64,000 nt of DNA from Escherichia phage FEC19, in the sequence record MH816966. One strand, given 5' to 3'. Positions 392 to 59,665 of the stretch are shown piece by piece. Position 1 is the first letter of the stretch. Each line of letters opens with the position of its first letter. Both the position numbers and the translations under genes were made by a program. Under the pieces are notes generated by a model. The model was not told where the DNA came from, ran no database searches, and was given only the letters and a program-made list of their open reading frames with translations.

Positions 392-1018
392 ATGGTTAGC
401 TTAAATCGCTTTTCTACTAGCGGCGACGTTATCGCAACTAAGACCGCCGACCTCGTTGCATTTTATAATGCAAATTCCGGCTCTAAGCCGATTAAGAAAT
501 TTGCGGACCGGCGGACCGCCGAGACTCGCGTAATCGCGCTAATCGAGTCCTTAAACGCGCTCGATGAGCCGTCCAACGAATCGCCCATCCCCGACGCGAA
601 GTCGCGTGAGGAAGTGTCCAGCGATGTAAAAACGCATAAGGCGCGTGCGGTCGTTAAAAAGGCCGAGCCGACTCAGGAAGAACTCGACGCGATGACCGAC
701 GAAGAGTATGAAGCATTCGTTAAAAGCGGCCTAAACGATAGTGCAAATTGCGTAGTGCAAAATGGAACTCCTTCCCATCGCCGTTCGAATAGCGAAGGTA
801 TTGCAAAAAGTTGGGATAATAAGGAAGTGGCGCAAAAGCGTCTCACCCGTAACGGCGTCATGGTCGAGGGAGTAGGCGAGTTCAAATCGGTCCGCGTAGC
901 GTTCGCCGCGCTGGGATTACCGGATAGCAAGCACATTCGCTTCCGCATGAAACTTAAGGAAGCTGGACGCTTGAACTTTGAGTTCGGCAACAAGTCCTAC
1001 ACCTTCCAGATCATCTAA
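392..1018 (+). CDS. hypothetical protein
   Basis: 208-aa ORF with AGGAG RBS at 379-383; contains two ATAGTGCAAAT-type motif copies in frame. Confidence 0.5.
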   Translation: MVSLNRFSTSGDVIATKTADLVAFYNANSGSKPIKKFADRRTAETRVIALIESLNALDEPSNESPIPDAKSREEVSSDVKTHKARAVVKKAEPTQEELDAMTDEEYEAFVKSGLNDSANCVVQNGTPSHRRSNSEGIAKSWDNKEVAQKRLTRNGVMVEGVGEFKSVRVAFAALGLPDSKHIRFRMKLKEAGRLNFEFGNKSYTFQII

Positions 1019-1023
1019 TCGAA

Positions 1024-1046
1024 TGGCGGCCCTTCGGGGTCGCTTT
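1024..1046 (+). terminator. stem-loop (TTCG loop) followed by T-run, putative intrinsic terminator after ORF 392..1018
   Basis: ggcccttcggggtc hairpin then gcttttc. Confidence 0.45.
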
Positions 1047-1068
1047 TCATAGTGCAAATTGGTGGCTT

Positions 1069-1332
1069 ATGAATACGCTTATTCTTATCGCTACGTTGTC
1101 CATCGGAAGCGGTCGCACCTTATCCCTTTACGACCATAGTGCAAATTGCGTTTACCCAACGCGCGTTGCGGCGATAGTTAATAGTGCAAATCGAATGCTA
1201 TTCGAGACTTGTTGGCGGGTTGATAACGAGAAAGGACGCATCGTCTTAGGTTATAGTGCAAATCTGCTGGTGGAGTCGTTCGACTGGACGGCTGAAGGTC
1301 GTAAATTGTTACGTAAAGTGACTAAAAGATGA
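1069..1332 (+). CDS. questionable ORF overlapping the motif array (three in-frame copies encode H/N/Y-S-A-N)
   Basis: 87-aa ORF; the DNA-level identity of the repeats suggests the region may be non-coding. Confidence 0.2.
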   Translation: MNTLILIATLSIGSGRTLSLYDHSANCVYPTRVAAIVNSANRMLFETCWRVDNEKGRIVLGYSANLLVESFDWTAEGRKLLRKVTKR

Positions 1333-1391
1333 CTTATAATAATACACTTTCTAACGCGTTTATGGTTGCAACCTTCCCAGTCGTATTACCG

Positions 1392-1431
1392 ATGGCCCTA
1401 GAAGTGGAGAAAACGTGTTCTAGGGCCATTT
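1392..1431. terminator. perfect 10-bp inverted repeat hairpin (ggccctagaa / ttctagggcc) between converging units, T-run on plus side
   Basis: Inverted repeat read directly; followed by attttat. Confidence 0.5.
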
Positions 1432-1446
1432 TATAGTGCAAATTGG

Positions 1447-1920
1447 CTAGTGGCGGGAGAATTGCTCACCCTCTTTGGCCGCCTCTCCAAAATCCTTGTA
1501 GAAATCATCCATGGAACGGCCCATTTTACTATTGCCGTTTTCATCAATCATTGTGATGCCGTAGATGATATTCAGTTCACGAATGGCATTAAGCTTGGCT
1601 GACGCCGCGACTTCTGGATCACGCACAAGCTTCACTAAATTGTGGATGGAACTCTTTACGCTCCACAATTCTTTCAATGGCATCTCTTCCATACGCTTTT
1701 TGTAGCGCATCTTGTAGTACGGATTGCGCTGAGTGCAGAGGATTCGCTGGCCAGTGTAGTTATCGGTCGCAACCTCCATGCCAAATACTAGTGCAAAAGC
1801 TGCGCGCATGTCATGTCCCTGAATAACAAGGTCAATGAACTCATCGAATAACGCCTGATTATGCTCTGCAAATCGTGGGTCTTCAAAGTCTTCAGGCATT
1901 GCTACATAATCTTGACTCAT
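1447..1920 (-). CDS. hypothetical protein (start moved to internal Met MSQDYV)
   Basis: ORF 1447..2115 trimmed; sigma70-like promoter (TTGAAT / TGTATAAT) at ~1965-1995 lies inside the longer ORF. Confidence 0.5.
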   Translation of the reverse strand: MSQDYVAMPEDFEDPRFAEHNQALFDEFIDLVIQGHDMRAAFALVFGMEVATDNYTGQRILCTQRNPYYKMRYKKRMEEMPLKELWSVKSSIHNLVKLVRDPEVAASAKLNAIRELNIIYGITMIDENGNSKMGRSMDDFYKDFGEAAKEGEQFSRH

Positions 1921-2139
1921 AGTGCAAATCCCATAGTGCAAATTAATAGTGTGAATTATACAATGATTGAACATTATATTCAAGTGCAGATTGATGTTCA
2001 AATTGGCTGTAAACGTACATAAATCATAGTGCTGAATGAATATCGGACCGTGGTGCGTGGTGTACTGTTTGATACGTATAAAAGAAATCCATCCCTTTCG
2101 CCGCTTGTTATGCAAATCAATGACTTAGCCGCAGCTGGC

Positions 2140-2450
2140 TGGTTGAAGCGTATCATGACGTATCATCCGTATCGCCGCAAGTCTTTGTTTTTATTTATAT
2201 CTTACGGATAATACGTATAAATATAAGTTTAGTATAAGTATGAGGATGTAGAAAAAAATTAATTTAAATTAATTCAAAATGGAGTTAATTGTTTTTTTCA
2301 AAGTTGTATAAAGTATAGCGGCGACGCGTATCATCCGTATCATCCGTAAGATGTACCACTGAACCCAGTCGCGGCGCACCATAGAAGTGTGTGGAGTGAA
2401 CTACGGATAGGTCCAAATCTTACGTCATTATACGCTTAAATTCTATGCGT
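2140..2450. repeat. composite intergenic element copy 1: multiple TACGGATGA/TCATCCGTA 9-mers in both orientations, AT-rich palindromic core, GCGTATAATGACGTA box
   Basis: A ~45-bp block (ataaagtat.gcgg..acgcgtatcatccgtatcatccgtaagat) is near-identical to 54420-54468. Confidence 0.8.
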
Positions 2451-2720
2451 AAGGTTAGCCAGCTAACTATATCTCCTTTTTAATTTCAAGCGGCAATCCC
2501 AGAGACGGCGCAGCCTACAGGCCCACACACCACGGTACACGCCCCAAAACCTAGTGATTCCCTCTCCAATACCACAACACCACAGTACAATATTCTTCCA
2601 AATTCGCACACATATTCAAGACACAAAAATCACGTCACAATACTCACACCCCCACCATCCTCTAATAGATTTACACAAATCAATCGCTTTATCCGATAAT
2701 AAAGACTCACAAGCAACAAG

Positions 2721-2744
2721 CAAACAAAAAGGGCCAATCGGCCC
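2721..2744 (-). terminator. intrinsic terminator after gene 2763..3215
   Basis: gggccaatcggccc hairpin; minus strand reads hairpin then tttttgttt. Confidence 0.6.
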
Positions 2745-2762
2745 TCTTAACATTAATCACTA

Positions 2763-3215
2763 TTAAAATATAAAATTCTTCACTCCAAGCCTTTTAAATT
2801 CCTTCCTTATCATCATATTAAACTTCTTCAATTTAGTTTTATTCATCCTTAAAGGATTGTAAGTGAGTACCTCTTCTATTACTTCCTTACGCATCTTTGA
2901 GCGCATATTAGTTAAGTAATAATTCTTGAACATATTAATAAGGTGATTGGCTTCCAGCTTAAGCTCAATTACTTCTTCCGATTCATCAAGCTCAAGTAAT
3001 CCTTTTTGCGTAAGAATATCTCTTAATATATTCTGGCACTTCTTGCAATCACCTTTACCTAAAAGCGAATCGATATAATCGCCGCTGACGCGCTCATCAC
3101 CGAAATATGTTGCGCGACCGCAAAGGCTTTGCACTTCTCCTTCGTCAAAGTAATGCGCACGATGGCCCCACTTCGGTATGGCCCAACCAGCGGCGATAAG
3201 CTTGTTACCCATCAC
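2763..3215 (-). CDS. hypothetical early protein
   Basis: 150-aa ORF in tightly packed minus-strand operon. Confidence 0.5.
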   Translation of the reverse strand: MMGNKLIAAGWAIPKWGHRAHYFDEGEVQSLCGRATYFGDERVSGDYIDSLLGKGDCKKCQNILRDILTQKGLLELDESEEVIELKLEANHLINMFKNYYLTNMRSKMRKEVIEEVLTYNPLRMNKTKLKKFNMMIRKEFKRLGVKNFIF

Positions 3216-3637
3216 CCCTCCTTAACGACGCGATAAGCAATGATGTCGCTGCCCTTTAACGCGCCTATATGGCCCCAGTGAAGATGGTCAGAGAGTCTTG
3301 ACAGTACTTTATCTCCTCCATTGCGCAGCTTGTATTCAACCATCTTCCCAGGCACCGGATTATTGCCACCAAACCACACGGTCCACGCTTCCTCCTTCGG
3401 CGCATCAACGTCCACGCCTATAGTAGCAACAACGTCATGCAACTGCTTAACGAGCGCCGATGCATCACGGACCTGCGAGCGTAATGCAACCAACTCGCGT
3501 TGCGCTTCACTGTATTTCGCTTCCAGCGCGGCGTAGTCCTCATATGCAACAAAACGTCCTTCGTGACTTTCTGGAACAGGAGTGATGTCGAAATCTTCTG
3601 TCGCCACATCGTATGTCAGGTCATAACGTTGTATCAT
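3212..3637 (-). CDS. hypothetical early protein; C-terminal domain paralogous to 4841..5341
   Basis: Shared C-terminal W.GG.NPVPGK...IIAYRVV motif. Confidence 0.55.
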   Translation of the reverse strand: MIQRYDLTYDVATEDFDITPVPESHEGRFVAYEDYAALEAKYSEAQRELVALRSQVRDASALVKQLHDVVATIGVDVDAPKEEAWTVWFGGNNPVPGKMVEYKLRNGGDKVLSRLSDHLHWGHIGALKGSDIIAYRVVKEG

Positions 3638-3854
3638 TTAACTTCTCCAAAATTTCAATAGCGATTTGCGTTTGCTTCTCAAGAGCAAGACGCAACATGT
3701 CAATTTGCAAGTCACGATGGGCCAGTTCAGCAGCGATGTCCGCCTTGCTGTAAAGTCCTTCATGCGTCATGGCAAAGATGTGGCGCGTATAATAGCCGCC
3801 CTCGTCGAGTTGCTCGATGTCACGCTGCCCGACTGCGTATTGCTTATCGGTCAT
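3621..3854 (-). CDS. hypothetical early protein
   Basis: 77-aa ORF, operon packing. Confidence 0.4.
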   Translation of the reverse strand: MTDKQYAVGQRDIEQLDEGGYYTRHIFAMTHEGLYSKADIAAELAHRDLQIDMLRLALEKQTQIAIEILEKLNDTTL

Positions 3855-4183
3855 GATGCATCCTTAGTTGGATAGAATTTAGGGTTGTTCTTATAGAATG
3901 CCTTGAGCCATGCCTTTGCTTCGGCGATGCTGCTGAACTCTTCCTTGGAGAGTCCGGTGCGGTCCTCGCCTGCGACCTTGAAATGGATGCGCACCTTGAG
4001 CCGAAGGTTGGTTGCTCTCGCGTAGTGGCCTTCATAGCCGTCATGGTTGAGACTTACTATCGCGGCGAGCATCTCGCAATCTTCTTTATCGGGATTGCCG
4101 CTGTAACAAGTCGGCCAGCCGCGACGTTGGAATGACCTGTATTGGCCTGTTGGCTCAGGGTCCACGTACCATTTCAATTTCAT
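3851..4183 (-). CDS. hypothetical early protein
   Basis: 110-aa ORF, start overlaps upstream stop. Confidence 0.5.
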   Translation of the reverse strand: MKLKWYVDPEPTGQYRSFQRRGWPTCYSGNPDKEDCEMLAAIVSLNHDGYEGHYARATNLRLKVRIHFKVAGEDRTGLSKEEFSSIAEAKAWLKAFYKNNPKFYPTKDAS

Positions 4184-52709: not shown

Positions 52710-54128
52710 TTATTCCCCTTTCAACCAAGCTTCAAACGCTTCGTCAGTTGCTGCAGAATCCGCAGCGGCCTTTTGTTTTGCGACTACACGCTGTTTTTGA
52801 CCGTGTTCAACGCCGCGCAGATAATTATCCACCACGTCAAACTCAGCACCATCAACGCACTTCAAGCCTAACTTTTTAGCGCCATATTTCGCTACGGACT
52901 TGGAGTCCATAGTTGCATGATCAAAGGCACCAACAACTTTAGACAGGCGCTGGTAGAGGCTATTCTTACGAGCAGAATCAGCGTAGAAAGCAGCAACTGC
53001 TGAATCAGATGCCATTGAGTGTTCCCCTTTTGCTGGACCTGGCGACGCTTTCGCCGCTTTTGTCGGTTTGTCATCTTTTTCGACCGAAGCCCCCTTTACG
53101 TTGCTGTTTTGCAGGCCGCTAACCACATCTTCAGCTTTGTCGCAAGGTGATACATCTTCAGCCTTGACTTCAACTTCTTCGTCTTTGACTTCGGCTTCAA
53201 CTTCTTCTTCATCACCTACCGCGCCACCTTTCAGTTTTGCAATAAGTGCTTCGATTTGGCTGATCAGTTGCGGAAGCTCGCCGCCAGCGTGAGATTCAGT
53301 TTCAACTTCAAACTTCTCTTCACCTTCTGGAGTCTCTTCAGCTTCTGCTTTGACTTCTGGATCAACCATCACTTCTTCACGTTCTTCGGTTGAATCCTTC
53401 TCTTCTGCTTTCACTTCAACTTCGTCCTGATGAGCAGCTTCGGTGCTCTCTTCATTCAGAAATTGTTCGAGCGCAGGGATCAGTGACTTCAGCTGTTCAA
53501 CAGCATTATCACGCGCTTTACCTTTTAACGGTTTTGGCATGTCTAAATCCTCGTTGGATGGTGTTACAGTCGTCAAACAAAGATGGTCAAAGCAACGACC
53601 ATCCAGCACCCGTGCACCTGGTACTCGACCAACGTCCACGAGAGCAATGTGGTTGCCGCGAAGAGTTGTCTGTACCACTTCATACGGCTGCCCGTCAAAC
53701 TCTCCAGACTGTATGATGAATTCACAGTCATAGCCCAAAGACAAGTCAACCTTTCCAGAATCGATGGCTTTCTTCAGACGACGGCTAAAAACTTTAAGGT
53801 CGCCGCGCATCCATGGCTTGTCATAATAAACATTGCCAGTTAGAACGCCATCAACGCCATACTCTTCGGGTGCTGTGTTATCCTCATCACCTTCGAATCC
53901 AGAAAGCATTTCGTGATTGTCGATGAAAGGGATATTTTTGAATGAATCTATCGCTTCGGGGTCTTTCACCGCTGACTCTGGGCGATAAACTTTTACGATG
54001 CGATTCGGATCACCATCAAGTCCAACCTGACCTGCAGAATAATCAAAAATGCCAAATGACGAAATGGGACAACCCACAATCGTCAAGAATCCATTTTTGT
54101 CAATTTCGCGTGCCGTTTGCATTCGCAT
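52710..54128 (-). CDS. prohead protease-like N-terminal domain fused to acidic scaffold-like region
   Basis: Long E/K/V-rich acidic repeats (EVEAEVKDEEVEVKAED) after a ~200-aa N-terminal domain. Confidence 0.5.
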   Translation of the reverse strand: MRMQTAREIDKNGFLTIVGCPISSFGIFDYSAGQVGLDGDPNRIVKVYRPESAVKDPEAIDSFKNIPFIDNHEMLSGFEGDEDNTAPEEYGVDGVLTGNVYYDKPWMRGDLKVFSRRLKKAIDSGKVDLSLGYDCEFIIQSGEFDGQPYEVVQTTLRGNHIALVDVGRVPGARVLDGRCFDHLCLTTVTPSNEDLDMPKPLKGKARDNAVEQLKSLIPALEQFLNEESTEAAHQDEVEVKAEEKDSTEEREEVMVDPEVKAEAEETPEGEEKFEVETESHAGGELPQLISQIEALIAKLKGGAVGDEEEVEAEVKDEEVEVKAEDVSPCDKAEDVVSGLQNSNVKGASVEKDDKPTKAAKASPGPAKGEHSMASDSAVAAFYADSARKNSLYQRLSKVVGAFDHATMDSKSVAKYGAKKLGLKCVDGAEFDVVDNYLRGVEHGQKQRVVAKQKAAADSAATDEAFEAWLKGE

Positions 54129-54180: not shown

Positions 54181-54224
54181 ACAATAATTATGGTTTGAAT
54201 ATGTATAACAACCGATATAGCCGC

Positions 54225-54530
54225 GCCTTAATTAGTGTGATACGGATGATACGGATAAAATGAGGCGTATTTTTATCCGTATCGGTGTATAAGCCGCGCT
54301 ATCACTGGTGTGCTACGGATGATACGGATGATACGGATACTTTTCATATATAAGAGTTTATAAAAAAAATAAAATTAAATTAGATATATAATTTTAAATT
54401 AATTTATTTGAATTCCTATAAAGTATCGCGGCAACGCGTATCATCCGTATCATCCGTAAGATTCTTTTGAAAACAACTACTTACTTGATACGGATGATAC
54501 GTCATTATACGCGTAAAATCCTGCGGCAAT
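54225..54530. repeat. composite intergenic element copy 2 (TACGGATGA 9-mers, 13-bp perfect inverted repeat, AT-rich core, GCGTATAATGACGTA box)
   Basis: Homologous to 2140-2450; triple tandem tacggatga at ~54282-54308. Confidence 0.8.
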
Positions 54531-54545
54531 CCATTGCCAGGCGAT

Positions 54546-54683
54546 TCAGTGAATATTAAAAAGCACTCCAGCAACTAAAACGCCAATCAGCATCGAGTCG
54601 TAAACAGCCCATTTCCAAGAAAGCAAAGAGTTGCAATTAATATTTCGCACTTTAACGTAACGTGACTGAATAATCTTTTGCAT
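54546..54683 (-). CDS. small membrane protein (45 aa, C-terminal TM), not in ORF track
   Basis: AAGAGGA RBS; MQKIIQSRYVKV...MLIGVLVAGVLFNIH. Confidence 0.35.
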   Translation of the reverse strand: MQKIIQSRYVKVRNINCNSLLSWKWAVYDSMLIGVLVAGVLFNIH

Positions 54684-56474: not shown

Positions 56475-58850
56475 TCAACCTTGCTTCGGTGAATTAGTAG
56501 GATTATTGAGTGCTCCGTATGCTTGAGAGCAATCACCCTTCAACCACTCTTTGAATGAGTTCACATCTAATTCGTGGATTGAGTCGAATCCGTTCCAACC
56601 GTTACCAAATGATGCCTGATAAGCTTCTTTTGCTTCTTCTGCTGAATCGAATCCAAGCATGCACTTGTGTTCATCGAACTCGCCAGAGTAGTTATCGTTT
56701 TGGTTCACGATAAAGACCTTCGGCGACTTCAGATTTGTGCCAACAAAGCAGTCGACTTCATCGCCGTCCGCGCCCTTGGTGCCTTTGATGAATCCGTAGT
56801 GGTGCGGCATCTTGACTGCCCATTCACCGTCAAGGCTGTTTCCTCTACGGATGCTGTTGCGAGGATTCTCAATCCCAAGAATCAGCCCATGCAACTTCAT
56901 CTTAGGTAATGATGCTGCGTCCATCTTTCCAACGTTGTGTCGTAAGTTGACGACATTACCTTTGACGCTTGGAAGGGTAGACGGTTGCACCGACCGTGAA
57001 TCTTTTTGAGGGTCAAAATCCACATCCTGACCTTCTTTCAGGTAGTAATCCGCAATACCCTCCAGACCTTCTTTCAACTGCGTTAGGACATCAACCTGAT
57101 GGCTTGATTCATCGTCGGTATCGTCCATGTTGATTTCGACAGGCGCTCTGTCAGGGTTTTCCGCCAACTCACCGCGCGCGGCACCTTCTGGCATAATGCC
57201 TGTTTCACTGTAGAACTGGCCGCCCATCTTAACGACATCAGCTTTCGCCTGTTCAATATCGGCCTTACCTTGTAGGACTTCACCAGCAGACTTGCCAAGC
57301 AATGCCATATTCTCTGGAGACATCCCTGGTGTTTCTTCTGCCGCATCTTCCGGCAGACGGTTGTAGCCGCTGTTTTTGTCGTCTTTGATGCGGTCGCGCT
57401 CTTCATCAGGAGAAATGACGCCAGCATCAATAAGAGTTTTGCCAGTGTTGGCTCGCTTATCATTGATTTCTGCAAGTTGAGTAGCAGTAAGTGAGCCAAC
57501 TGGTTCCCATGCAACCTTAACATCGACATCCACCCCTTCTGATTTGAGAAGGATTTTGTAATGGCGGTCGAGAATTTTTGTCAGGTCATGCTGCTGGCAC
57601 GTTTCCAACTCTTCGTGATAGCTGACCATCTCGAATTCACCAGTGGCGTTAAAGCCTTTTGGCGAAGTCCCAAGCAGTTTGGTCGACGGAACTTTTGCGA
57701 TTGCGGCCACCAGCTGGTACTGGTTCATGATGATGCTGTCGAAGTCTGACAAGTTGATATCAAACTGGTCCATCTCTTCTTTTTGGCCAAGCACTTTGAC
57801 TGCATAGTTGTCGCGGTACTTGATCCACATCATCAGACGTTCTGCAAAAGACCGCTCATTGGCAATCGCCTTGTCAACGTCGGTCCGCAGCGTGGTTGTA
57901 CGCTTGGACATCGCCAGCAATGGCGCTTCGTTAGCGGTACGTTCAGCGGCATAGATGCGTTCATAAATCTGCTGAGTCAGAGGAATGCCGCCGTAAATAT
58001 AAGTTGGCTTGAGAATATCAGCTGGCTCATCATTGCGCAAGATGATGAGGTGACTTCGATGATAACGTTGTCCACTGATCACCCAGTATTCTGGATCATA
58101 GAAGTGCTGTGATGCAGGGTCGGCGGTGTTTTCAGACGTCAAAAATGGCATCATCCAATAAGGGTCGACCTGAATGATTCCCTTATAAGACCCCTTTGTC
58201 ACACCATCAATGTTAAAAGGCTTGCTGTAATATTCTGGGTCATCGCTACGCACATCAAATATGATGACGCGGATACCAAAAATATTTTTGAATCGTTCGG
58301 CTTCAACTAAGTGCTCTTTGATATTAAATTCTTTATCAATTTGCTTTAGGCGTTCGCTTGCCTGTACTGACAATTCTGACTCAGAACTGGATTTGACTTC
58401 CCATCCTTTACGGACCGCATCGCGGCCTACCATGGAACAAGCCTTGTTCACCAGCCAGTGCTGCGCGATGATGGCGCAAGCTTGATATCCGATAAATGAT
58501 TGCGATAAGTACCAGTTTTGCAACTGAATAGGTACTGTGTATGGGTTGACTTGCCCTTCTGAACTGATGTTCTTTAAGGCATTATCCATAACTTTTTTGG
58601 ATACTGTTGCGGAATCGACTGAGCGACCTTTTATGATTGCAACACCATCGCCATTAATATCAGGCTCATATAAAGGGAAGTCATCAACCGTTTTAAAGGT
58701 CGGTCGATTGCTTTCAGTCTTTTCCCAGCGTTGACCGCTGCCGCGCCTTTCAAGGCGTTCAAACGGTGCCAATGGGTCGCCTGGCGGCATCTCCGCTGGT
58801 TCGGCTTCTGGTTGCGTCTTCTCCCAGAGTTTTATGCCAAGAATTTTCAT
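56475..58850 (-). CDS. portal protein with C-terminal extension
   Basis: 792 aa between terminase and MuF; AGGTGG RBS before trimmed start MKILGIK. Confidence 0.65.
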   Translation of the reverse strand: MKILGIKLWEKTQPEAEPAEMPPGDPLAPFERLERRGSGQRWEKTESNRPTFKTVDDFPLYEPDINGDGVAIIKGRSVDSATVSKKVMDNALKNISSEGQVNPYTVPIQLQNWYLSQSFIGYQACAIIAQHWLVNKACSMVGRDAVRKGWEVKSSSESELSVQASERLKQIDKEFNIKEHLVEAERFKNIFGIRVIIFDVRSDDPEYYSKPFNIDGVTKGSYKGIIQVDPYWMMPFLTSENTADPASQHFYDPEYWVISGQRYHRSHLIILRNDEPADILKPTYIYGGIPLTQQIYERIYAAERTANEAPLLAMSKRTTTLRTDVDKAIANERSFAERLMMWIKYRDNYAVKVLGQKEEMDQFDINLSDFDSIIMNQYQLVAAIAKVPSTKLLGTSPKGFNATGEFEMVSYHEELETCQQHDLTKILDRHYKILLKSEGVDVDVKVAWEPVGSLTATQLAEINDKRANTGKTLIDAGVISPDEERDRIKDDKNSGYNRLPEDAAEETPGMSPENMALLGKSAGEVLQGKADIEQAKADVVKMGGQFYSETGIMPEGAARGELAENPDRAPVEINMDDTDDESSHQVDVLTQLKEGLEGIADYYLKEGQDVDFDPQKDSRSVQPSTLPSVKGNVVNLRHNVGKMDAASLPKMKLHGLILGIENPRNSIRRGNSLDGEWAVKMPHHYGFIKGTKGADGDEVDCFVGTNLKSPKVFIVNQNDNYSGEFDEHKCMLGFDSAEEAKEAYQASFGNGWNGFDSIHELDVNSFKEWLKGDCSQAYGALNNPTNSPKQG

Positions 58851-58956
58851 TGTTAACGCCACCTGACAGTGAAAGGGAATCAATCTATATTATAAATATT
58901 CATGTGTTTGTAAGCAAATGATATGTATGGTGATCATAAATAGTTCATAAAATATT

Positions 58957-58985
58957 TTGCTTTTGTATCATTTTGAGTTATATTT
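58957..58985 (+). promoter_or_regulatory. sigma70-like promoter (TTGCTT-17-TATATT) for opposite-strand cassette
   Basis: AT-rich gap; AAAGGAGA RBS before ATG 59013. Confidence 0.45.
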
Positions 58986-59012
58986 TAGTTAACCAAACGA
59001 AAGGAGATTGAA

Positions 59013-59429
59013 ATGAGCACAACAATTGTATTTGTCGTCCTACACAACGGCGAAGTCGTTAACGTATGCGAATATGAAGAACTGGCAAAGGCCACTGCTG
59101 CGCGATACGAAGGTGCTACTATTGACCCGTGGATTTTAGATGCGCGCAACGTCTTGCAGGCGACTTTGGATGAGTGGCTGTTGGGTCGCAAAGTCTATCC
59201 AGTAGACGACATCGACTCAATTCAAGGTGAAACAGTATATTTTGAAGATGAATGCGTTCGCGGCATCGGCAAATTTATGGGATTGTGCCCATCTTCATCC
59301 AAAAATAAATTTTATCGTATTCAAGTTGAAGAAAACGATATGTTTGACAAAGTTACGCGCTCGATTGTTCCTGACGGCGGCACTCCAATCTTTATGGCAG
59401 AATCAGACATCAAGGGGATCATCAAATGA
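59013..59429 (+). CDS. hypothetical protein in opposite-strand cassette
   Basis: 138-aa ORF with strong RBS. Confidence 0.5.
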   Translation: MSTTIVFVVLHNGEVVNVCEYEELAKATAARYEGATIDPWILDARNVLQATLDEWLLGRKVYPVDDIDSIQGETVYFEDECVRGIGKFMGLCPSSSKNKFYRIQVEENDMFDKVTRSIVPDGGTPIFMAESDIKGIIK

Positions 59430-59665
59430 GAACGTTAACCGAACTCGATGTTTTGAAAGACGTTGCAGCCGCGCTGGGCGTAGAATTATCCGAAAAGGCG
59501 ACACTAGGTGCTTTGCGTCGGGATTTACTCGAAGCTGTTGACCGCAACGATTTTGACCGTAAGTGTATGCAAAAGAAGATTCGGCAGGCGGTGAGAGCGG
59601 GTAAGCGATTCCGTGCCAGGTCGTTTGCCGCAAGAAAGCTTGACCTTCAGCACGGAATGCTTTGA
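59426..59665 (+). CDS. hypothetical basic protein in opposite-strand cassette
   Basis: 79-aa ORF; start overlaps upstream stop. Confidence 0.45.
   Translation: MRTLTELDVLKDVAAALGVELSEKATLGALRRDLLEAVDRNDFDRKCMQKKIRQAVRAGKRFRARSFAARKLDLQHGML

What the first reader, a model, noticed from the sequence alone, without database searches (positions are those of the whole stretch)
2530..2760. G-depleted, C/A-rich 230-bp non-coding tract
The plus strand between 2530 and 2760 is almost devoid of G (ccacaacaccacagtacaat...cacacccccaccatcc), giving extreme strand asymmetry next to the iteron element and downstream of a minus-strand terminator. A C-rich, G-poor transcript is the classical signature of Rho-utilisation sites; alternatively the tract could be a structured RNA on the minus strand or a DNA-level signal (packaging or origin-associated). 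The 70-aa ORF 2554..2766 predicted here is probably an artefact of the composition.
Basis: seen in the sequence. Interest (0 to 1): 0.45.

Follow-up and report, generated by a model that had tools for sequence, protein, structure and literature searches.

The report
G-poor flank of phage packaging site
The G-poor stretch is real, does not code for protein or a folded RNA, and is one arm of a strand-composition switch that brackets the site where this phage family's packaging enzyme first cuts the DNA; the switch has not been described in the papers I could search, and how it works is unknown.

Summary
Window 2517-2726 has 17 G in 210 nt, and it is the only place in 64 kb where |GC skew| exceeds 0.5.

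The window is a Wifcevirus, an E. coli myophage related to PB1. The tract lies in gene-free DNA between a minus-strand terminator (2748-2727) and the boundary of the 3.7-kb direct terminal repeat (2280|2281). Gene 1447..1920(-), next to that boundary, is the small terminase.

The 70-aa ORF is frameshifted in seven relatives. Neither strand folds better than shuffled sequence. No promoter is predicted to read into the tract.

The tract's sequence evolves fast and is replaced in other Wifcevirus lineages, but it stays G-poor. The same layout recurs 350-580 nt upstream of the small terminase gene across the family: G/T-rich arm, A/T-rich centre, C/A-rich arm. It is seen in Pbunavirus, Serratia MyoSmar, Aeromonas Gekk3-15, Xanthomonas Carpasina, Pantoea Kyle and uncultured relatives. 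Mapped genome ends fall in the centre. T7 and T5 show a weaker form at their repeat boundary.

My best reading is a DNA-level flank of the packaging cut. The strand that would end 3' at the cut is G/T-rich. The mechanism is inferred, not shown. A Rho site is not excluded, but no transcript is predicted for it to act on.

The parts
2517..2726 (.). The G-poor, A+C-rich tract on the + strand (G+T-rich on the - strand). It is the unique-sequence arm of the composition switch around the packaging cut.
   Evidence: 17 G in 210 nt, and the only |skew|>0.5 region in the window. Nucleotide diversity is 0.04-0.11 against 0.004-0.016 in the adjacent core. The sequence is replaced but still G-poor in the CWP003, Ro157lw, F13, Eco4M-7, WFC and Bas99 lineages.
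2527..2589 (+). Two direct copies of ACACCAC(G/A)GTACA (2527-2539 and 2577-2589) at the inner edge of the tract. An inverted, doubled copy lies at 2047-2063 on the other side of the cut.
   Evidence: Repeat family D5 and inverted pairs I5/I8. ACACCACG boxes about 50 bp apart also occur in the divergent Wifcevirus lineage, and ACACCACGG occurs in PB1 and JG024.
2668..2704 (.). Conserved island inside the tract with two small palindromes: GATTT-ACAC-AAATC (2668-2681) and CTTTAT-CCGATA-ATAAAG (2687-2704). The second resembles the TACGGATAA iteron.
   Evidence: Read from the sequence. The island is nearly invariant among ten group-A sequences while its flanks vary. Direct repeat D3 links 2671-2689 to 2108-2126.
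2727..2748 (-). Intrinsic-terminator-like hairpin (GGGCC GATT GGCCC followed by a T run) that ends the upstream minus-strand operon.
   Evidence: A terminator is annotated at the same place in phage WFH.
2554..2766 (+). 70-aa ORF: an artefact of composition, not a gene.
   Evidence: Frameshifted with stop codons in 7 of 7 relatives tested.
2140..2516 (.). Highly conserved core containing iterons (2159-2173, 2327-2350, inverted 2203-2216), nested inverted repeats centred near 2250-2297, and CCCAG-N3-CGGCGC boxes (2364-2383, 2498-2517).
   Evidence: Nucleotide diversity 0.004-0.03. A second copy of this module lies at about 54,200-54,550 and has no skewed arms.
2257..2274 (.). 18-bp perfect palindrome AATTAATTTAAATTAATT in the A/T-rich centre, next to the cut.
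   Evidence: Pbunavirus carries AAATTAAT twice at the equivalent place.
2280..2281 (.). Left boundary of the 3.7-kb direct terminal repeat, i.e. the terminase cut site. The repeat extends leftward from 2280.
   Evidence: The reverse complement of WFH 1-60 equals window 2221-2280 exactly, and the Mansfield record ends at 2281. The WFH repeat is 3701 bp at 100% identity. Mansfield was opened at a repeat boundary predicted by PhageTerm (PMC6753283). WFC and WFH carry a repeat of about 3.7 kb (PMC6563267).
1447..1920 (-). Small terminase subunit gene (TerS), the first gene inside the terminal repeat. Sigma-70-like promoters lie at 2001-1973 and 1983-1955 on the - strand.
   Evidence: 39% identity to PB1 gp79 (E 4e-40). 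A family profile hits PDB 7UXE 'Small terminase' at E 5.5e-65; 7UXE is E217 TerS (PMC9611059). Promoters.

Best explanation
Shown. The tract is non-coding DNA. It is the unique-sequence arm of a two-armed, mirror-symmetric strand-composition switch around the terminase packaging-initiation site. In this phage that site is the left boundary of the terminal repeat (2280|2281), just upstream of the small terminase gene. Read with the terminase gene on the top strand, the order is:
1. upstream operon
2. intrinsic terminator
3. G/T-rich arm (this tract)
4. conserved A/T-rich centre, where the cut is made
5. C/A-rich arm
6. promoter
7. small terminase gene

Inferred. I think the tract works as DNA, not as RNA. 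On both sides of the cut, the strand that would end 3' at the cut is G/T-rich. The strand that would be removed by 5'-to-3' resection, or displaced from a nick, is G-poor and almost free of self-structure. My proposal is that this is the zone where the concatemer end left behind by the initiating cut is processed into a 3' single-stranded tail, or is extended from a nick. That end could then be rescued by recombination or used to prime synthesis across the terminal repeat.

Unresolved. The composition could be selected for that role, or it could be the chemical footprint of repeated single-strandedness (loss of amino groups from C and A).
For: Location:
- Two independent determinations place the repeat boundary at 2280|2281 (PMC6753283, PMC6563267).
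- The adjacent gene is the small terminase.

Family-wide conservation of the switch:
- The largest left-minus-right skew difference in the whole window is 0.81 (z 5.8; next best 0.40). In the whole PB1 genome it is 0.82 (z 6.4).
- It falls 350-580 nt upstream of the terminase gene in the window, PB1, JG024, Gekk3-15, MyoSmar, Carpasina, Kyle and uncultured contigs L035-L040.

Mapped ends fall in the centre:
- The MyoSmar PhageTerm boundary is at L027:3590.
- JG024 long reads start at 59,376 +/- 5 (PMC10913387).
- Many Pbunavirus records are opened about 600 nt upstream of the terminase gene.

Specific to the packaging copy:
- A second copy of the conserved core, upstream of the head-protease gene, has no skewed arms in this phage.
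- In PB1 the only two regions with |skew| above 0.45 are those in the TerS-upstream gap, so its matching second-copy region has none either.

DNA rather than RNA or protein:
- Both arms lie between a terminator and the terminase-proximal promoter.
- The ORF is broken in relatives.
- There is no structure signal and no Rfam match.

Composition rather than sequence:
- The tract is 5-10 times more variable than the core.
- It is replaced between lineages yet stays G-poor.
- The equivalent Pbunavirus arm is hypervariable (diversity 0.20-0.35).

Signs of a process that extends beyond the tract:
- The asymmetry is amino (A, C) against keto (G, T) bases.
- It bleeds about 300-450 nt into third codon positions of the neighbouring gene.

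The G-poor strand is nearly structure-free: -0.054 kcal/mol per nt against a window mean of -0.25.

Weaker parallels: T7 has its genome-wide skew minimum (-0.55) right after its terminal repeat, and the T5 locus has its largest switch at the repeat boundary.
Against: - No experiment bears on resection, nicking or recombination at this site. The mechanism rests on polarity and position alone.
- The arm inside the terminal repeat is weak in this phage (+ strand skew +0.14 to +0.22 in 200-nt windows, 150-nt maximum +0.44). The switch is weak in Kyle and absent in tabernarius.
- In Pbunavirus the C/A-rich arm is conserved in sequence (diversity 0.02-0.16), so the two arms need not do the same thing.
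- Composition-preserving A<->C and G<->T changes are enriched in the Wifcevirus tract (21 of 55 against 22 of 112; P 0.014). This was not reproduced in the Pbunavirus arm (P 0.91).
- The tract also holds conserved islands that look like protein-binding sites, so it is not purely compositional.
- Promoter absence rests on a sigma-70 consensus scan. Phage-specific promoters are not covered.
- SPP1, a well-studied phage that packages from a pac site, shows no such switch.
Confidence: 0.42

Rival explanations
1. Neutral mutational footprint with no function. The region is unconstrained spacer. One strand is repeatedly single-stranded near the packaging cut, or is the non-template strand of read-through transcription. 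That strand loses C and A by deamination and so becomes G/T-rich.
For: - The asymmetry is amino against keto bases, with A about equal to C, then T, then G, on the G-poor strand. From my own knowledge, this is the pattern ascribed to deamination in vertebrate mitochondrial DNA.
- The tract evolves fast.
- The skew bleeds into third codon positions of the flanking gene.
- Amplitude varies between genera.
Against: - Transitions are not in excess, as a deamination-driven regime predicts. The count is 24 transitions to 31 transversions in the tract, against 47 to 18 in the neighbouring gene.
- The skew is extreme for a lytic phage.
- The Pbunavirus C/A-rich arm is both strongly skewed and conserved in sequence.
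- The constrained core between the cut and the tract shows no skew.
Confidence: 0.2
2. Rho-utilisation site. Transcripts that start in the A/T-rich centre and read outward would be C-rich, G-poor and unstructured. Rho would terminate them before they run antisense into the flanking operon.
For: - C/G ratio 4.2 with 36 YC dimers in 210 nt.
- RNA folding energy is only -11.3 kcal/mol for 210 nt.
- The outward-reading strand is the C-rich one on both sides of the centre in PB1, Gekk3-15 and MyoSmar. All these hosts are Proteobacteria.
Against: - No + strand sigma-70-like promoter is found between 2100 and 2530.
- Scans of relatives place the terminase promoter beyond the C/A-rich arm, and none finds a leftward (minus-strand) promoter from which an outward C-rich transcript could cross the G/T-rich arm.
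- Depletion of T along with G is not something a Rho site needs.
- The second copy of the A/T-rich core, at about 54.3 kb, has no such tract.
Confidence: 0.18
3. Part of a replication origin. The iterons and A/T-rich centre would be the initiator-binding and unwinding region. The G-poor, structure-free outward-reading strands would be the tracks on which 5'-to-3' replicative helicases load and move away from the centre.
For: - Iterons, an A/T-rich centre and nested inverted repeats are present.
- In PB1, tabernarius, Gekk3-15 and MyoSmar the gene just upstream of the gap is a primase or primase-polymerase.
- The geometry fits, since the outward 5'-to-3' strand is the unstructured one.
Against: - The sign of the skew (+ then -) is that of converging forks, not diverging ones.
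- The same iteron and A/T-rich module recurs upstream of the head-protease gene in two genera. That looks more like a shared late regulatory region.
- No origin has been mapped in this family in the papers I could search.
Confidence: 0.1
4. A gene product: either the 70-aa protein (2554..2766, +) or a structured non-coding RNA on the minus strand.
For: An ORF exists in the window. Some GenBank records annotate small minus-strand ORFs at this place.
Against: - The ORF is frameshifted in 7 of 7 relatives.
- Folding z-scores are -0.40 and +0.34.
- None of 56 predicted pairs shows a compensatory change.
- There is no Rfam match.
- The sequence is replaced between lineages.
Confidence: 0.02

Closest known systems
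Short-repeat arrays (CCTAAAG units) flanking the T7 terminal repeat
   Same: - They are non-coding and lie directly beside the terminal repeat.
- The top strand reading away from the repeat is C/A-rich and G-poor. T7 nt 172-321 is the genome-wide skew minimum (-0.55).
- The genome's largest + to - skew switch lies near the concatemer junction.
- To my knowledge their function is still not settled.
   Different: - In T7 the skew comes from about a dozen copies of a heptamer. Here there is no tandem unit, only two ACACCACRGTACA boxes.
- The strongly skewed T7 tract lies just inside the genome's left end, after a 160-bp repeat. Here the strong arm lies outside a 3.7-kb repeat.
- The phages belong to unrelated families.
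Multi-part packaging sites with recognition elements on both sides of the cut (SPP1 pacL-pacC-pacR, P1 pac)
   Same: - A cut site sits in a central segment.
- Repeated, partly inverted short elements flank it over a few hundred base pairs.
- It lies next to the small terminase gene.
   Different: - SPP1 shows no sign-switching skew at pac.
- Binding of the small terminase to these elements is untested here. E217 small terminase showed no appreciable DNA binding in vitro (PMC9611059).
- The comparison with pacL/pacR and P1 pac is from my own knowledge of those systems.
Rho-utilisation (rut) sites such as lambda tR1
   Same: A C-rich, G-poor, unstructured + strand of more than 80 nt.
   Different: - No predicted transcript crosses the tract.
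- T is depleted as well.
- The feature is mirrored on the opposite strand across a DNA cut site, which no rut site is known to be.
Strand asymmetry produced by single-strandedness (mitochondrial heavy/light strands; G-rich non-template strands at R-loop-prone termination zones)
   Same: The asymmetry is amino against keto bases and of similar size. It lies downstream of a terminator, with the G-rich strand on the non-template side.
   Different: It is local (200-400 nt) and mirrored about a terminase cut in a lytic phage. There is no evidence here for R-loops or for prolonged single-strandedness. The comparison is from my own knowledge.

Membership tests
Rho-utilisation site / Rho-dependent terminator | C-rich, G-poor stretch of at least about 70-80 nt with little secondary structure in the RNA | tested here: met
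   C 72, G 17 in 210 nt. Folding energy -11.3 kcal/mol, z -0.40.
Rho-utilisation site / Rho-dependent terminator | The stretch is transcribed in the C-rich sense from an upstream promoter | tested here: not met
   No + strand sigma-70-like promoter in 2100-2530. In relatives the arms lie between a terminator and the terminase promoter. This is a consensus scan only, and phage-specific promoters are not covered.
Rho-utilisation site / Rho-dependent terminator | Rho-dependent 3' ends downstream that are sensitive to bicyclomycin | not testable with these tools
   This needs RNA 3'-end mapping with and without Rho inhibition.
Terminase packaging-initiation region (pac site or terminal-repeat boundary) | Physical genome ends map to the site | tested here: met
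   The WFH repeat start equals window 2280 and the Mansfield end equals 2281 (PMC6753283). The tract itself lies 237-446 bp from the cut.
Terminase packaging-initiation region (pac site or terminal-repeat boundary) | Close to the small terminase gene, and conserved in position across relatives | tested here: met
   Small terminase identified. The switch lies 350-580 nt upstream of it in the other genera and uncultured contigs examined, except tabernarius. Ends in MyoSmar and JG024 fall in the centre.
Terminase packaging-initiation region (pac site or terminal-repeat boundary) | The tract itself is required in cis for cutting or packaging | not testable with these tools
   This needs deletion or recoding and a packaging or transduction assay.
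Structured non-coding RNA | Stability above shuffled controls, compensatory base changes, or a match to a curated family | tested here: not met
   z -0.40 and +0.34. 0 of 56 pairs compensatory. No Rfam match above chance.
Protein-coding gene (ORF 2554..2766) | The reading frame is kept in relatives | tested here: not met
   Stop codons after about 36 codons in 7 of 7 relatives.
Iteron-type replication origin | Repeated initiator-binding sites next to an A/T-rich unwinding region | tested here: inconclusive
   Iterons and an A/T-rich palindrome are present. But the same module recurs upstream of the head-protease gene, and the tract is not part of that module.
Chi-like recombination hotspot cluster | Enrichment of GCTGGTGG or near matches on the strand that would end 3' at the cut | tested here: not met
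   One 7-of-8 match (GATGGTGG, 2652-2659, - strand). GGTGG is not enriched over shuffles.

The most novel reading that the evidence does not exclude
Phages of the PB1/Wifcevirus family, and perhaps terminal-repeat phages more widely (T5 and T7 show weaker versions), may mark their packaging-initiation cut with a selected, mirror-symmetric asymmetry of amino and keto bases. Each DNA end made by terminase would then carry a G/T-rich 3' strand and a G-poor, structure-free 5' strand. This would act as a built-in recombination or priming zone. It would rescue the concatemer end left behind by the cut and regenerate the terminal repeat by synthesis primed from that 3' end. The signal would be defined by composition rather than by sequence.
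Probability: 0.2. Interest if true: 0.75.

Novelty: new variant of a known kind. Interest (0 to 1): 0.5.

Why it matters
- How phages with long terminal repeats duplicate the repeat during packaging is poorly understood outside T7. A composition-defined zone at the exact boundary gives a concrete place to test this by recoding, end mapping and single-strand footprinting.
- The skew switch upstream of the small terminase gene located the experimentally mapped ends in Wifcevirus, MyoSmar and JG024. It could therefore serve as a cheap sequence-only predictor of packaging start sites in this family. That would help with opening genome records consistently and with designing synthetic, rebootable genomes. 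Pbunaviruses are widely used therapeutic phages.
- The result also shows that the small ORFs annotated across this gap in several GenBank records are not genes.

Tried and rejected
- Coding ORF: rejected, frameshifted in relatives.
- Structured RNA on either strand: rejected.
- G-quadruplex on the G-rich strand: the G4Hunter maximum is 1.32 in the window, the highest in 64 kb, but only 0.56 in the divergent Wifcevirus lineage, so it is not conserved.
- Chi-like hotspot cluster: no enrichment.
- DNA bending or wrapping: no 10-11-bp periodicity in the window tract (P > 0.13). Isolated signals in the left arms of PB1 and Gekk3-15 are not consistent across arms.
- A short motif shared by all arms: no trinucleotide is consistently enriched.
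- Long C-rich 5' leader of the terminase gene: rejected. The promoters lie close to the gene, beyond the arm.
- Test for selection on composition from the substitution spectrum: suggestive in Wifcevirus (P 0.014) but not reproduced in Pbunavirus, so inconclusive.
- Transcript evidence from the 14-1 (Pbunavirus) long-read transcriptome paper: the main text says nothing about this locus and its supplements are not held.
- The E217 terminase paper could not be read.
- The other terminal-repeat boundary (WFH 3701) shows no comparable skew.
- A population-frequency test needs many Pbunavirus sequences. Only six loci could be fetched.

Full report
**1.

Window 2530-2760 contains 20 G in 231 nt, where about 52 are expected (binomial P 1.7e-8). 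The core 2517-2726 has 17 G in 210 nt. The lowest G count in any 210-nt window is 13. Thirty first-order Markov simulations of the window never fell below 24.

This is the only place in 64 kb where |GC skew| exceeds 0.5. At a 150-nt window that region spans 2494-2900, and the minimum is -0.74. T is depleted as well as G (AT skew about +0.27). The asymmetry is therefore A+C against G+T.

**2. What the window is, and where the tract sits**

The region is 94-97% identical to Wifcevirus phages of E. coli: WFH, ECML-117, Bas101, Mansfield and AV128. These are distant relatives of the PB1-like Pbunavirus phages (PMC11990801) and are now placed in the family Lindbergviridae.

The tract lies in an 840-bp gene-free gap between two minus-strand genes, 1447..1920 and 2763..3215. 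It sits directly after a terminator-like hairpin on the minus strand at 2748-2727.

Phage WFH carries an exact 3701-bp direct terminal repeat (about 3.7 kb in PMC6563267). The reverse complement of WFH 1-60 equals window 2221-2280. The Mansfield record, opened at a repeat boundary predicted by PhageTerm (PMC6753283), ends at window 2281. The physical genome end is therefore at 2280|2281. It lies beside an 18-bp palindrome (2257-2274) and inside a set of iterons and nested inverted repeats. The tract is in unique DNA, 237-446 bp outside the repeat.

**3. The neighbouring gene is the small terminase**

Gene 1447..1920(-) is 39% identical to PB1 gp79 (E 4e-40). A profile of 12 family members matches PDB 7UXE, 'Small terminase', at E 5.5e-65. 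7UXE is the decameric small terminase of Pbunavirus E217 (PMC9611059). The gap is thus the region just upstream of the small terminase gene, where packaging starts.

**4. It is not a gene and not a folded RNA**

- ORF 2554..2766 acquires stop codons after about 36 codons in all seven relatives tested, because of a 1-nt indel.
- The + strand RNA folds at -11.3 kcal/mol for 210 nt (z -0.40). The - strand folds at -41.2 kcal/mol (z +0.34).
- An alignment fold finds no compensatory change in any of 56 predicted pairs.
- Rfam gives no match above chance.

The G-poor strand is unusually free of self-structure: -0.054 kcal/mol per nt, against a window mean of -0.25 and a least-stable sampled value of -0.149.

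**5. Composition is conserved; sequence is not**

Among ten closely related sequences, the core 2251-2500 is almost invariant (diversity 0.004-0.016). The tract varies 5-10 times more (0.04-0.11).

In other Wifcevirus lineages (CWP003, Ro157lw, F13, Eco4M-7, WFC, Bas99) clear homology stops at window 2352. The sequence beyond that point is barely alignable but again G-poor, with a 150-nt minimum of 8-12 G.

A few islands persist within the tract:
- two ACACCACRGTACA boxes at 2527 and 2577, with an inverted pair at 2047-2063;
- a block with two small palindromes at 2668-2704.

**6. The same architecture recurs across the family**

PB1 has a 920-bp gap between the primase terminator and the small terminase gene. 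In that gap the top strand is G/T-rich at 58,600-58,800 (skew up to +0.77). An A/T-rich centre carrying AAATTAAT twice follows. The strand is then C/A-rich at 59,200-59,475 (skew -0.77). These are the only two regions of the PB1 genome with |skew| above 0.45.

I scored each position as the skew of the 250 nt to its left minus the skew of the 250 nt to its right. The maximum falls 350-580 nt upstream of the small terminase gene in these sequences:

| Sequence | Maximum score | Note |
|---|---|---|
| This window | 0.81 | z 5.8; next best elsewhere 0.40 |
| PB1 | 0.82 | z 6.4 |
| JG024 | 0.74 | 4-kb locus only |
| Aeromonas Gekk3-15 | 1.06 | |
| Serratia MyoSmar | 0.83 | |
| Xanthomonas Carpasina | 0.58 | |
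| Pantoea Kyle | 0.42 | weak |
| Uncultured contigs L035-L040 | 0.55-0.80 | |

Phage tabernarius does not show the switch.

Mapped ends lie in the centre of this architecture:
- The MyoSmar PhageTerm boundary is at L027:3590.
- In JG024, 36 of 161 long reads start at 59,376 +/- 5 (PMC10913387). That position lies between the two arms.
- Many Pbunavirus records are opened about 600 nt upstream of the terminase gene.

The window's tract corresponds to the G/T-rich arm that follows the upstream operon's terminator. In the window it is read on the opposite strand, which is why it appears G-poor.

**7. The zone is predicted to be untranscribed**

In MyoSmar the best sigma-70-like promoter is TTGACT-17-TATAAT at 3914-3942. 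In Gekk3-15 it is TTTACA-17-TATAAT at 2877-2905. In the window they are at 2001-1955 on the - strand. All lie close to the terminase gene, beyond the C/A-rich arm. PB1 has only a weaker match (9 of 12) in the same position. In the window, PB1, MyoSmar and Gekk3-15 the upstream operon ends in a terminator-like hairpin before the G/T-rich arm.

No rightward promoter is predicted between 2100 and 2530 in the window. This weakens any RNA-level reading, including the Rho site, although the scan covers only host-type promoters.

**8. The arms belong to the packaging copy only**

The conserved core is duplicated at about 54,200-54,550, upstream of the head protease/scaffold gene 52710..54128 (DUF2213). 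Segment 54,417-54,462 is 95.7% identical to 2307-2352. That copy has no skewed arms (skew -0.23 to +0.25).

Pbunavirus has the same duplication, upstream of gp22, and PB1 has no strongly skewed region there. The core may therefore be a late regulatory module shared by two late genes. The skewed tract goes with the genome end, not with the iterons.

**9. How it most likely works**

What is shown: the position relative to the cut, conservation of the polarity across the family, the lack of coding or RNA-structure signal, and the fast sequence turnover.

What is inferred: on both sides of the cut, the strand that would end 3' at the cut is G/T-rich. The strand that would be removed by 5'-to-3' resection, or displaced from a nick, is G-poor and unstructured. 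I propose that the tract is the zone where the concatemer end left by the initiating cut is turned into a 3' tail, or is extended from a nick. It could then be rescued by recombination or used to prime copying of the terminal repeat.

The high mosaicism on exactly this side, in both genera, fits a recombination-prone end.

Whether the composition is selected or is a footprint of repeated single-strandedness is open:
- The amino/keto character, and the bleed into third codon positions, point to a mutational contribution. The third-position skew is -0.22 in gene 2763..3215, against a background of +0.08. It is +0.38 in the last 300 nt of the PB1 primase gene.
- The lack of a transition excess, together with enriched A<->C changes in the Wifcevirus tract (P 0.014), points to selection. 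The Pbunavirus arm does not reproduce this (P 0.91).

**10. Comparison with what is known**

The nearest known thing is the array of CCTAAAG units beside the T7 terminal repeat. T7 nt 172-321 is that genome's skew minimum (-0.55), and its largest + to - switch lies near the concatemer junction. In a 6-kb T5 locus the largest switch (0.52) falls within 5 nt of the right terminal-repeat boundary. SPP1, which packages from a pac site, shows no sign switch.

The tract meets the compositional definition of a Rho-utilisation site but not the requirement of being transcribed. I found no description of these arms in the searchable literature on Wifcevirus, Pbunavirus or terminase.

**11. Verdict**

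This is a real and statistically extreme feature. Its first-choice interpretation (Rho) is unsupported, and its fallback (a packaging-associated DNA signal) fits the evidence. The novelty lies in the conserved, mirror-symmetric, composition-defined flanks of a packaging cut. The mechanism remains a hypothesis.

Noticed in passing
window 54,200-54,550: A second copy of the conserved iteron and A/T-rich core. It carries GATACGGATGATACGGAT three times, TTTAAATTAATT and 'gcggcaatcc'. Segment 54,417-54,462 is 95.7% identical to 2307-2352. It lies upstream of the DUF2213 head protease/scaffold gene 52710..54128 and has no skewed arms. Pbunavirus has the same duplication upstream of gp22. It may be a late regulatory module, which raises the question of why terminase cuts only one copy.
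   Followed up: partly
window 738-1943: Eight exact copies of ATAGTGCAAAT, all on the + strand and all inside the terminal repeat. Some lie within ORFs, and two overlap the start of the small terminase gene (1919-1929 and 1933-1943). None of 100 shuffles reached the observed count. Function unknown. It looks like an array of protein-binding sites rather than promoters.
   Followed up: partly
L012 (WFH) 3701-3840, outside the window: Just beyond the other end of the terminal repeat there are two copies of AAATTTGCAGTACAC. This resembles the reverse complement of the ATAGTGCAAAT motif. There is no strong skew at that boundary.
   Followed up: no
L046 (T7) 160-350; L047 (T5) around 3033: T7's genome-wide GC-skew minimum (-0.55) is the CCTAAAG array immediately after its 160-bp terminal repeat. 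In the 6-kb T5 locus the largest + to - skew switch falls within 5 nt of the right terminal-repeat boundary. A skew switch may be a general mark of repeat boundaries.
   Followed up: partly
window 2352 onward, and gene 2763..3215: Wifcevirus lineages split here. Homology with CWP003, Ro157lw, F13, Eco4M-7 and WFC ends at 2352, and the next gene differs too (about 178 aa against 150 aa). Bas99 and Bas98 have a third version with about 165 extra bases. This is a mosaic junction right beside the genome end.
   Followed up: partly
L002 (Bas101) 2870-3353; L015 (kaset) 399-1153: Several GenBank records annotate three to five small minus-strand 'hypothetical proteins' across this gap, while other records annotate none. 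Given the turnover and indels, they are probably not genes.
   Followed up: partly
window 1447..2115 versus 1447..1920: The longest ORF for the small terminase gene starts at a TTG at 2115 and runs through the promoter and iteron region. WFH annotates a 633-nt version. The alignment with E217 and PB1 small terminase, and with most records, supports the ATG at 1920.
   Followed up: partly
L020/L021 (PB1) 58,901-59,000 and 59,301-59,350: In seven Pbunavirus sequences the centre of the gap is nearly invariant (diversity 0.006-0.04). Part of the C/A-rich arm is also nearly invariant (0.017, at skew -0.9). The G/T-rich arm is hypervariable (0.20-0.35). The two arms are under different constraints.
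   Followed up: partly
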